A stretch of DNA of 62,855 nt from the NCBI GenBank assembly GCA_938003925.1, contig CALKWQ010000054.1, positions 1 through 62,855 on the forward strand, read 5' to 3'. Positions 4,795 to 43,927 of this stretch are shown piece after piece. A program made the translations under genes and the position numbers. The notes beneath the pieces were generated by a model. That model was not told where the DNA came from. It made no database searches and saw nothing but the letters and a program-made list of their open reading frames with translations. The DNA comes from an uncultured bacterium (GTDB taxonomy: Bacteria; Patescibacteriota; Patescibacteriia; Patescibacteriales; UBA12465). Numbering within the stretch: the first letter of the stretch is position 1; each line of letters starts with the position of its first letter.

Positions 4795-4881
4795 GCCCGG
4801 ATGGCGGAATTGGTAGACGCGCTAGCTTCAGGTGCTAGTCTTCGCAAGGGGGTGGGGGTTCGAGTCCCCCTTCGGGCACCA
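4795..4881 (+). tRNA. tRNA-Leu (anticodon CAG), CCA encoded
   Basis: Acceptor stem GCCCGGA/TTCGGGC-A-CCA, D-loop GGAATTGGTAGAC, anticodon arm CTAGC-TTCAGGT-GCTAG, long variable arm, T-loop GGTTCGAGTCC. Confidence 0.96.
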
Positions 4882-4885
4882 TTAA

Positions 4886-4962
4886 GGTCGTTTAGCTCAG
4901 CTGGTTAGAGCGCTGCGTTCACATCGCAGAGGTCAGTGGTTCGAGTCCACTAACGACCACCA
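4886..4962 (+). tRNA. tRNA-Val (anticodon CAC), CCA encoded
   Basis: Acceptor stem GGTCGTT/AACGACC-A-CCA, D-arm GCTCAGCTGGTTAGAGC, anticodon arm CTGCG-TTCACAT-CGCAG, T-loop GGTTCGAGTCC. Confidence 0.96.
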
Positions 4963-5020: not shown

Positions 5021-5173
5021 GGCTGTTTTTTAGTATAAAAAAAGGGGGACACCTCAGCGTCCCCCGGCCGTGCTTCAATTTAAAGCCATCTCTTTGTGAG
5101 TTAAAGCAGCAAACTCACAAAAGCAGACGCGTTAAAACCCCGTTCCGCACAGCAATATTTTTTCTAAAGAGCC
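5021..5173 (-). ncRNA. Candidate structured ncRNA, 6S-RNA-like rod
   Basis: Minus-strand sigma70 promoter directly upstream and no ORF. Nested stems with G-U pairs that work only on the minus strand, and 5'/3' end complementarity. Family assignment is inference. Confidence 0.5.
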
Positions 5174-5178
5174 ACTAT

Positions 5179-5207
5179 ATACTACTACTTATATTATTTA
5201 TTGTCAA
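5179..5207 (-). promoter_or_regulatory. Sigma70-type promoter for the candidate ncRNA
   Basis: TTGACA (5207-5202), 17-nt spacer, TAGTAT (5184-5179). Confidence 0.75.
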
Positions 5208-5291
5208 TAGCTAGAAGCCATGTATTGGTTTAGGCTTAAAATGATAGATTTTTTTAATTTATGTGTTAAAATAAAGGTGTTTATTAACTAT

Positions 5292-43669: not shown

Positions 43670-43927
43670 TTAGAAGCGCTTTTCTAGGGGGCGAGCTTCA
43701 TTAACGGCAACGCGGCGACCATCTAATTCTTGGCCATTCCACATTGCGATTGCAGCCTGCGCCTCTTCCTCAGTTTCCATCTCCACGAAGCCGAAGCCTT
43801 TGGAGCGCTGAGTCATGCGGTCTTTGATGATGACAGCAGAAATGACGTTGCCAGCTTTGGCAAAAGCATCTGCTAAAACATCTTCAGTGGTCTGAAAAGA
43901 CAAACCGCCGACAAATAACTTTTTCAT
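43670..43927 (-). CDS. Single-RRM RNA-binding protein
   Basis: RNP2 LFVGGL, RNP1 KGFGFVEM, C-terminal VNEARP. Confidence 0.95.
   Translation of the reverse strand: MKKLFVGGLSFQTTEDVLADAFAKAGNVISAVIIKDRMTQRSKGFGFVEMETEEEAQAAIAMWNGQELDGRRVAVNEARPLEKRF

What the first reader, a model, noticed from the sequence alone, without database searches (positions are those of the whole stretch)
5021..5207. Unannotated ~150-nt 6S-like RNA on the minus strand with its own promoter
A near-consensus promoter (TTGACA-17-TAGTAT) predicts a start at G5173/G5172, and the transcript has no ORF longer than about 11 codons. It folds into a rod: terminal hairpin TTTGTGAGTT/AACTCACAAA, then CGTCT/AGATG, TTTAACGC/GCTTTAAA and GCTGTGC/GCACGGC. 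The G-U pairs work only on the minus strand, which agrees with the promoter. The predicted first bases GGCT-C-TTTAG pair with CTAAA-AAAC-AGCC at the far end. This closes a central bubble with an A-rich 5' side and a GGGGGAC/GTCCCCC hairpin on the 3' side. A closing stem, bubble and terminal rod is the architecture of 6S RNA, the open-promoter mimic that binds sigma70-RNAP (inference). The alternative is a ~135-nt sRNA that ends at the GC hairpin plus U7 (about 5037). Either way it is an undescribed ncRNA candidate in a lineage with few annotated regulatory RNAs.
Basis: partly seen in the sequence, partly recalled or inferred. Interest (0 to 1): 0.72.

Follow-up and report, generated by a model that had tools for sequence, protein, structure and literature searches.

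The report
Genus-conserved small RNA, not 6S-like
The flagged stretch is a real small RNA gene with its own promoter and terminator, kept in at least 13 of 16 related species of uncultured Falkowbacteria (CPR bacteria), but it is a hairpin-plus-terminator regulatory RNA with a conserved loop, not a 6S-like decoy of RNA polymerase.

Summary
The sequence features are real. On the minus strand there is a TTGACA-17-TAGTAT promoter (5207-5179), a predicted start at G5173/G5172, no meaningful ORF, the listed helices, and a GC hairpin plus U7 terminator (5065-5037). The same unit sits at the syntenic site in 13 of 16 species of the genus: promoter, short leader, one hairpin or rod (P1), then terminator. 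P1 differs in sequence in every species but stays paired: all 12 pairs show changes on both sides, and 91% of cells pair against 53% in shuffles. Its loop keeps CUGCUUU in 11 species.

The 6S reading fails. No Rfam 6S match was found. The proposed closing stem is no better than chance, is not conserved, and is weakened by the majority allele at 5024. Most relatives are 75-110 nt with one 8-14-bp hairpin and cannot mimic an open promoter.

No Rfam family or paper describes this RNA. The most likely function, by inference only, is a trans-acting regulatory sRNA that contacts RNA or protein through its exposed U/C-rich loop. Expression data are inconclusive.

The parts
5202..5207 (-). -35 hexamer TTGACA of the sRNA promoter
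   Evidence: Found by the promoter scan. TTGAC(A/G/T) sits at the same place in all 12 relatives whose 5' part is available.
5179..5184 (-). -10 hexamer TAGTAT, 17-nt spacer
   Evidence: Strain variant 5182 C>T turns it into TAATAT, the form seen in two sister species.
5154..5173 (-). Predicted 5' end and single-stranded leader GGCUCUUUAGAAAAAAUAUU
   Evidence: The start is inferred from the spacing to the -10. GGYUCUUU and AAAAAUAU recur in five or more relatives. No 5'-end mapping is available.
5067..5153 (-). P1 rod: GCUGUGC/GCACGGC, UUUAACG/CUUUAAA, CGUCU/AGAUG, and the apical helix
   Evidence: Energy of the rod is -45.7 kcal/mol against an MFE of -49.0. Two other members also have lengthened rods. 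The outer helices are specific to this species and could not be tested by covariation.
5092..5122 (-). Apical P1 hairpin UUUUGUGAGUU-[UGCUGCUUU]-AACUCACAAAG
   Evidence: Perfect inverted repeat. It aligns to the family model R3 at 22.8 bits and is the only hit in the genome. All 12 P1 pairs covary across 10 species.
5103..5109 (-). Conserved loop motif CUGCUUU, at the 3' side of the apical loop
   Evidence: The motif is identical in 11 of 13 members. The variants are CUGCUACUUUU in G002 and UAGGUUUU in G014.
5120..5126 (-). Second copy of CUGCUUU, partly within the 5' arm of the apical helix
   Evidence: Read directly from the sequence. G006 also carries two copies, in tandem inside its loop.
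5037..5065 (-). Intrinsic terminator: 9-bp GC stem, UGAG loop, U7
   Evidence: A terminator is present in every member, and 8 of its 12 pairs show changes on both sides.
5021..5036 (.). Not part of the RNA: a post-terminator A-run plus a GC stretch.
   Evidence: The pairing with the 5' end is at chance level. In G007 the homologous stretch is an intact plus-strand terminator, GCUCC-GUAA-GGGGC-U6, for a convergent gene that the window lacks. Position 5024 varies without compensation.

Best explanation
Window 5173..5037 (minus strand) is a stand-alone small RNA gene of about 135 nt.

Shown: it has a near-consensus sigma70-type promoter and an intrinsic terminator. It is single-copy. It is conserved at the same chromosomal site, near rnhB, tRNA-Leu(CAG), tRNA-Val(CAC) and a Gmad2-domain membrane protein gene, in at least 13 of 16 species of one Candidatus Falkowbacteria genus. 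The common design is a short unpaired leader, often GGYUCUUU...AAAAAUAU, then one hairpin or rod (P1) of variable length, then the terminator. P1's stem sequence is free to change as long as it stays paired. Its apical loop displays a U/C-rich motif, CUGCUUU in 11 species, directly next to the 3' arm. The window copy is the longest version, because P1 is extended into a rod of about 87 nt.

Inferred: the RNA acts in trans, and the hairpin serves to present the loop motif, perhaps together with the pyrimidine-rich 5' end, as a contact surface. The most likely contact is short base pairing with AAAGCAG-like sites in mRNAs. This would follow the Hfq-independent, loop-seed style known from Gram-positive sRNAs. 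It is not a 6S RNA.
For: - Promoter and terminator are present in the window.
- The same unit is found by synteny in relatives whose DNA shows no blastn similarity.
- Covariation over both helices (8 species): 92% of cells pair against 66% in shuffles and at most 62% when partners are slid. Twenty of 24 pairs change on both sides.
- Covariation of P1 alone, 10 species including the window: all 12 pairs change on both sides; 91% of cells pair against 53% in shuffles.
- The loop motif is invariant while the stems diverge.
- Every member's predicted fold exposes the motif in a loop.
- No ORF is conserved.
- The model finds one copy per genome.
- The sRNA body 5066-5173 is invariant in strains from four unrelated metagenomes, while the flanks vary.
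- Strain variants keep or improve the -10 element.
- tblastn finds no Hfq, CsrA or ProQ homologue, which fits chaperone-independent loop pairing.
- In G009 the unit is replaced by a short remnant, so it behaves as a discrete gene that can be lost.
Against: - No transcript ends are mapped. RNA-library contigs cover the locus only at depth 3-4, are unstranded, and run past the predicted start, so they may be DNA carry-over or plus-strand read-through.
- No target was identified. AAAGCAG sites near start codons in the genome number only 14 and have no comparative support.
- The loop motif differs in the two most divergent members, G002 and G014. A strictly conserved seed therefore does not hold for the whole genus.
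- The covariation alignments were fitted by the covariance model and lean towards the structure.
- The family was not found outside one genus, although the models have limited reach.
Confidence: 0.55

Rival explanations
1. Protein-binding or protein-sequestering sRNA. The CUGCUUU loop is a recognition site for an RNA-binding protein, and the RNA titrates or guides that protein rather than pairing with mRNAs. Candidates are the highly conserved 85-aa RRM protein encoded at 43670-43927 and the KhpA-like KH protein.
For: - The motif is short, pyrimidine-rich and displayed in a loop.
- It occurs twice in the window and twice in tandem in G006.
- A second pyrimidine stretch, YUCUUU, sits at the 5' end.
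- The genome encodes an RRM protein that is 81-99% identical across the genus, and a KH protein. No Hfq, CsrA or ProQ was found.
Against: - Most members carry only one motif copy, unlike CsrB/RsmZ-type sponges.
- The RRM protein is also present in species where the sRNA was not found, so there is no phyletic link.
- No binding data exist.
Confidence: 0.2
2. 6S-like RNA. The transcript reads through to about 5021, a closing stem and central bubble form, and the RNA binds the sigma70 holoenzyme as an open-promoter mimic.
For: - The window copy is a long, irregular rod with an internal loop of about 10 x 5 nt.
- No Rfam 6S RNA is detectable anywhere else in this genome, so that role is unfilled.
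- One 151-nt RNA-library contig spans 4997-5147, past the terminator.
Against: - There is no Rfam 6S match even at E<=10.
- The closing stem is at chance level and is absent in relatives.
- The majority allele at 5024 breaks one of its pairs.
- A strong terminator precedes the proposed 3' strand.
- Ten of the 13 family members have a single 8-14-bp hairpin and total 75-110 nt. That is too small for the two long helices flanking a bubble that define 6S.
Confidence: 0.04
3. A cis or antisense element rather than a trans regulator. Two variants are possible. Either convergent transcription from this strong promoter collides or pairs with read-through from the tRNA-Leu/tRNA-Val operon, or the divergent promoter pair tunes the Gmad2 membrane protein gene and the RNA product itself is incidental.
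For: - The unit is always convergent with the upstream tRNA or ORF, and in 11 of 13 species it is divergent from the Gmad2 gene, with the two promoters about 60-70 bp apart.
- The tRNA genes have no good plus-strand terminator before the sRNA.
- RNA-library contigs run from tRNA-Val into the locus.
Against: - Covariation that preserves an RNA hairpin, together with an invariant loop motif, shows selection on the RNA product.
- In G006 the Gmad2 gene has moved away and the sRNA remains.
- In five species another gene separates the sRNA from the tRNAs.
Confidence: 0.1
4. A small protein-coding gene. The promoter serves a tiny ORF.
For: Short ORFs of 6-30 codons can be drawn in every member.
Against: Their positions, frames, lengths and peptides are not conserved. 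Most lack a ribosome-binding motif, and the longest run through the terminator hairpin.
Confidence: 0.02

Closest known systems
6S RNA (SsrS; Rfam RF00013)
   Same: It is a stand-alone non-coding RNA driven by a strong housekeeping-type promoter. The window copy can fold as an irregular rod.
   Different: It does not match the covariance model. It has no conserved closing stem or central bubble. The family is typically 75-110 nt with one short hairpin. It is lost or not found in some species of the genus.
Hfq-independent loop-seed sRNAs of Gram-positive bacteria such as RsaE/RoxS, and the 6C sRNA of Actinobacteria (comparison from my own knowledge)
   Same: The size is about 100 nt, with its own promoter and intrinsic terminator. 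A stem that is free to covary presents a short, conserved pyrimidine-rich motif in an apical loop. The genome appears to have no Hfq.
   Different: The motif is CUGCUUU, not a C-run. There is usually one motif copy rather than two to four. No sequence or Rfam relation exists. Targets are unknown. This lineage shows no Shine-Dalgarno enrichment, so blocking of ribosome-binding sites by pairing with G-rich sequences is less obvious.
Cyanobacterial Yfr1 (comparison from my own knowledge)
   Same: It is a short sRNA restricted to one clade, with an invariant unpaired motif held between structured elements and ending in a terminator.
   Different: In Yfr1 the motif lies between two hairpins. Here it lies inside a loop. 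The sequences are unrelated.
CsrB/RsmZ-type protein sponges
   Same: A short motif is displayed in loops and is duplicated in two members.
   Different: It has only one or two motif copies, no GGA motif, and no CsrA gene was detected.

Membership tests
6S RNA (RF00013) | Match to the Rfam 6S covariance model | tested here: not met
   No hit at the gathering score or at E<=10 in the locus, in 11 family members, or in the whole genome. The same search rang in 7 control genomes.
6S RNA (RF00013) | Conserved architecture: long closing stem, large central bubble, terminal stem; about 180 nt | tested here: not met
   The closing stem is at chance level in the window and in relatives. The 5024 allele breaks it. 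Most members are 75-110 nt with one 8-14-bp hairpin.
6S RNA (RF00013) | Binds sigma70-RNA polymerase holoenzyme and templates product RNA | not testable with these tools
   This requires in vitro binding and transcription assays.
Stand-alone bacterial regulatory sRNA (trans-acting) | Own promoter and intrinsic terminator, conserved across species | tested here: met
   TTGAC-17/19-TAnnnT and a GC hairpin plus U-run are present in all 12 members whose sequence is complete. G015 is cut by a contig end.
Stand-alone bacterial regulatory sRNA (trans-acting) | Non-coding: no conserved ORF | tested here: met
Stand-alone bacterial regulatory sRNA (trans-acting) | Conserved secondary structure supported by compensatory changes, plus a conserved unpaired motif | tested here: met
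   for covariation. for the motif.
Stand-alone bacterial regulatory sRNA (trans-acting) | Discrete transcript of the predicted size and strand | tested here: inconclusive
   Four RNA-library runs hold the sequence, but only as unstranded contigs at depth 3-4 that do not respect the predicted ends.
Stand-alone bacterial regulatory sRNA (trans-acting) | Conserved complementarity to target mRNAs | tested here: inconclusive
   A crude scan of the window's own genome found 14 AAAGCAG sites near putative start codons. Orthologues were not compared.
CsrB/RsmZ-type protein sponge | Many repeated protein-binding motifs, and the cognate protein encoded in the genome | tested here: not met
   There are only one or two motif copies. 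tblastn found no CsrA.
Structured repeat or mobile elements trailing tRNA genes in Patescibacteria (earlier notes of this scan) | Multi-copy, and an arm complementary to the 3' end of the preceding tRNA | tested here: not met
   The unit is single-copy. It shows no complementarity to tRNA-Val. It has its own promoter on the opposite strand.

The most novel reading that the evidence does not exclude
In these reduced CPR genomes, which lack Hfq, CsrA and ProQ, this sRNA could be the RNA partner of the genus's near-invariant 85-aa RRM protein or of the KhpA/B-type KH protein. The CUGCUUU loop, duplicated in two species, and the pyrimidine-rich 5' end would be the binding sites. That would make it the first RNA-protein regulatory pair defined in Patescibacteria.
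Probability: 0.1. Interest if true: 0.7.

Novelty: new member of a known kind. Interest (0 to 1): 0.4.

Why it matters
My searches found almost nothing described about regulatory RNAs in the Candidate Phyla Radiation: no Rfam family and no paper. This locus is a clean sRNA family supported by covariation, with defined promoter, structure, conserved loop and terminator, in organisms found worldwide in digesters, wastewater, landfill and groundwater. It gives a concrete RNA to look for in metatranscriptomes and to test for partners. It also removes a tempting but unsupported claim that CPR bacteria carry a miniature 6S RNA.

Tried and rejected
- blastn of the locus against 60 relatives found nothing. 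Homologues were found only through synteny.
- MAFFT plus RNAalifold on the raw sequences recovered only the terminator, because the loops differ in length. Three successive covariance models were needed.
- The first two models were dominated by the A-rich leader and by terminators. They gave 25-33-bit false hits across the family.
- The trimmed model's best hit outside the genus (G298, 42 bits) is the 3' end of an ORF plus a terminator.
- Pairing with the neighbouring tRNAs was rejected. No complementarity was found, and reading the sequence shows the loop's CUG could pair with the tRNA-Leu anticodon only as a 3-bp match.
- An Hfq-like tblastn hit turned out to be an unrelated 190-aa protein.
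- A phyletic link to the RRM protein was tested and not found.
- The 119-aa ORF lying between tRNA-Val and the sRNA in some species has no Pfam family and no homologue in the window's genome.
- I considered pairing of the sRNA 5' end with the Gmad2 mRNA leader. Only 5-7 bp of purine/pyrimidine pairing is possible, so it carries no weight.
- I considered a pseudoknot between the loop U-run and the leader A-run. I rejected it on geometry, because the motif abuts the 3' arm, and because G013 and G014 lack the A-run.
- Strain variation could not test the window-specific outer rod helices, because the sRNA body is invariant in all runs.

Full report
**What is in the window**

On the minus strand, TTGACA (5207-5202) and TAGTAT (5184-5179) are 17 nt apart. 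G5173 and G5172 follow the -10 element by 6-7 nt. A 9-bp GC-rich hairpin with a UGAG loop and seven U's lies at 5065-5037 and is a textbook intrinsic terminator. The transcript in between would be about 135 nt.

The minus strand folds to -52.0 kcal/mol (z -3.8) and the plus strand to -40.6 (z -3.1). The terminal hairpin TTTGTGAGTT/AACTCACAAA is a perfect inverted repeat. Taken together as a rod they score -45.7 kcal/mol against an MFE of -49.0, so the rod is a plausible alternative fold.

tRNA-Leu(CAG) and tRNA-Val(CAC) lie convergently at 4795-4962. A gene for a membrane-anchored Gmad2-domain protein is transcribed divergently from about 5286.

**Known families**

Rfam 15 gives only the two tRNAs at gathering scores. 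At E<=10 there is one chance match to a terminator. The 6S model finds nothing in the whole 1.2-Mb genome, although the same search rings in 7 of 14 control genomes. Eleven family members scanned together hit no family consistently. Papers on CPR small RNAs or on 6S in CPR were not found.

**Relatives**

Record titles of related loci place the genome in Candidatus Falkowbacteria, within Patescibacteria. blastn finds no similarity in 60 relatives. I therefore used orthologues of the Gmad2 protein and the tRNA pair as anchors.

The gap next to these anchors holds the same unit in the same orientation:
- a TTGAC-17/19-TAnnnT promoter;
- a short leader, often GGYUCUUU...AAAAAUAU;
- one hairpin (P1);
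- a GC hairpin plus U-run.

The unit is present in 13 of 16 species representatives of the genus. G015 is cut by a contig end. G009 shows a short remnant at the site. The unit was not seen in G001 or G003, but G001's contig ends 255 nt beyond tRNA-Val and G003 is only 84% complete.

In G006 the Gmad2 gene has moved away while the sRNA stays beside rnhB, tRNA-Leu and tRNA-Val. In five species an unknown 119-aa ORF lies between tRNA-Val and the sRNA. The sRNA is therefore a gene in its own right, not an appendage of either neighbour.

**Structure and conservation**

Every member folds so that P1 exposes a U/C-rich loop. The motif CUGCUUU, 0-2 nt from the 3' arm, is identical in 11 species. The window and G006 each carry two copies. 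G002 has CUGCUACUUUU, and G014, the most divergent species, has UAGGUUUU.

Stem sequences differ in every species. I built three covariance models in turn.
- On the alignment of 8 species, 92% of cells pair, against 66% in shuffles and at most 62% when partners are slid. Twenty of 24 pairs change on both sides.
- For P1 alone, with 10 species including the window, all 12 pairs change on both sides and 91% of cells pair against 53%.

These alignments were fitted by the model and lean towards the structure, but the margin is large.

P1 length varies from 8-14 bp in most species to lengthened rods in G002, G005 and the window. No ORF is conserved. The model finds a single copy per genome. A descriptor scan of the window's genome finds no second convincing hairpin of this type.

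**Distribution**

Searches of 121 family genomes and 316 order genomes gave no credible member outside the genus. The best outside hit is the 3' end of an ORF. The models have limited sensitivity, so wider but more divergent relatives cannot be excluded.

**The 6S hypothesis**

The proposed closing stem pairs the 5' end with 5021-5033, which lies beyond the terminator. Its duplex energy is -6.6 kcal/mol, against -5.2 +/- 1.9 for shuffled flanks; 20% of shuffles are as good. No relative has an equivalent stem.

In G007 the homologous post-terminator stretch is an intact plus-strand terminator for the convergent gene. In the window it looks like a degenerate leftover.

In four DNA metagenome runs and three RNA-library runs, position 5024 reads G, not T. 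That breaks U5170-A5024 without compensation. The sRNA body 5066-5173 is invariant in the DNA runs.

Ten of the 13 family members are too small and too simple to mimic an open promoter. I put the 6S reading at about 4%.

**Expression**

The organism occurs in digester, wastewater, landfill, hot-spring and groundwater metagenomes. Several RNA libraries contain the sRNA sequence. However, the data are unstranded assembler contigs at depth 3-4, some of which extend past the predicted start or the terminator. This is compatible with DNA carry-over or plus-strand read-through. It neither confirms nor refutes the transcript.

**Function (inferred)**

The design matches a trans-acting sRNA: a strong promoter, a stem that covaries, an invariant loop motif, a pyrimidine-rich 5' end and a terminator. 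The genome shows no Hfq, CsrA or ProQ by tblastn. It does encode a KhpA-like KH protein and an RRM protein that is 81-99% identical across the genus.

- **Base pairing through the loop.** This is the reading I favour, in the Hfq-independent style known from Gram-positive bacteria.
- **Protein binding.** The duplicated motif keeps this alive as a rival.
- **No target found.** A crude scan gave 14 AAAGCAG sites near start codons, with no comparative support.
- **No ribosome-binding-site mimicry.** Upstream regions show no Shine-Dalgarno enrichment, which argues against simple mimicry of the anti-Shine-Dalgarno sequence.
- **No link to the neighbouring tRNAs.** No complementarity to tRNA-Val was found.

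**Verdict**

The thing itself is a sound new sRNA family restricted to one genus. Its function is unknown.

Noticed in passing
window 5236-5275 (+), and the same place in L032-L042 and L151: Upstream of the Gmad2 membrane protein gene, every genus member keeps ATAGATTTTTT followed about 15 nt later by an extended -10 (TGnTAAAAT-like, here TGTGTTAAAAT). The -35 position is poor, so the conserved ATAGATTTTTT may be a regulator or UP-type site shared by the divergent promoter pair.
   Followed up: partly
window 5021-5036: The A-run plus GC stretch after the sRNA terminator looks like a decayed convergent terminator. It is intact in G007 as GCUCC-GUAA-GGGGC-U6 on the plus strand. The window allele T at 5024 is the minority; seven runs read G.
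   Followed up: yes
window 43670-43927 (-): The 85-aa single-RRM RNA-binding protein is present in 15 of 16 genus genomes at 81-99% amino-acid identity. For comparison, the Gmad2 protein is 39-51% identical. This conservation is unusually strong.
   Followed up: partly
L038 (G009), upstream of the Gmad2 orthologue: The sRNA site holds only CTTGAAAGC...GGGGGCTTTCCCCC. This looks like a deletion that joins the -35 region to a terminator-like hairpin, that is, a loss of the sRNA gene.
   Followed up: partly
window 5182: Strain variant C>T in several metagenomes changes the sRNA -10 from TAGTAT to TAATAT, the form found in sister species G007 and G008.
   Followed up: yes
L033 900-1259 (G008); also G004, G007, G011, G014: A 119-aa ORF with no Pfam family lies between tRNA-Val and the sRNA, convergent with the sRNA. 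It has no homologue in the window's genome.
   Followed up: partly
whole genome G000: No conserved 16S rRNA 3'-end sequence was found in the assembly. The 25 nt upstream of 671 long ORFs show only A/T-rich 5-mers and no Shine-Dalgarno enrichment.
   Followed up: partly
window 4864-4872 and 5042-5050: The 3' arm of the sRNA terminator (GUCCCCCUU) is identical to 9 nt of the tRNA-Leu(CAG) T arm. This is probably a chance match of GC runs.
   Followed up: no
L093 (JBLNBA010000004.1): The public record carrying the G013 copy of this locus is titled 'Bacillota bacterium'. Its gene content and the sRNA place it with the Falkowbacteria-like genus, so it is probably mislabelled.
   Followed up: no
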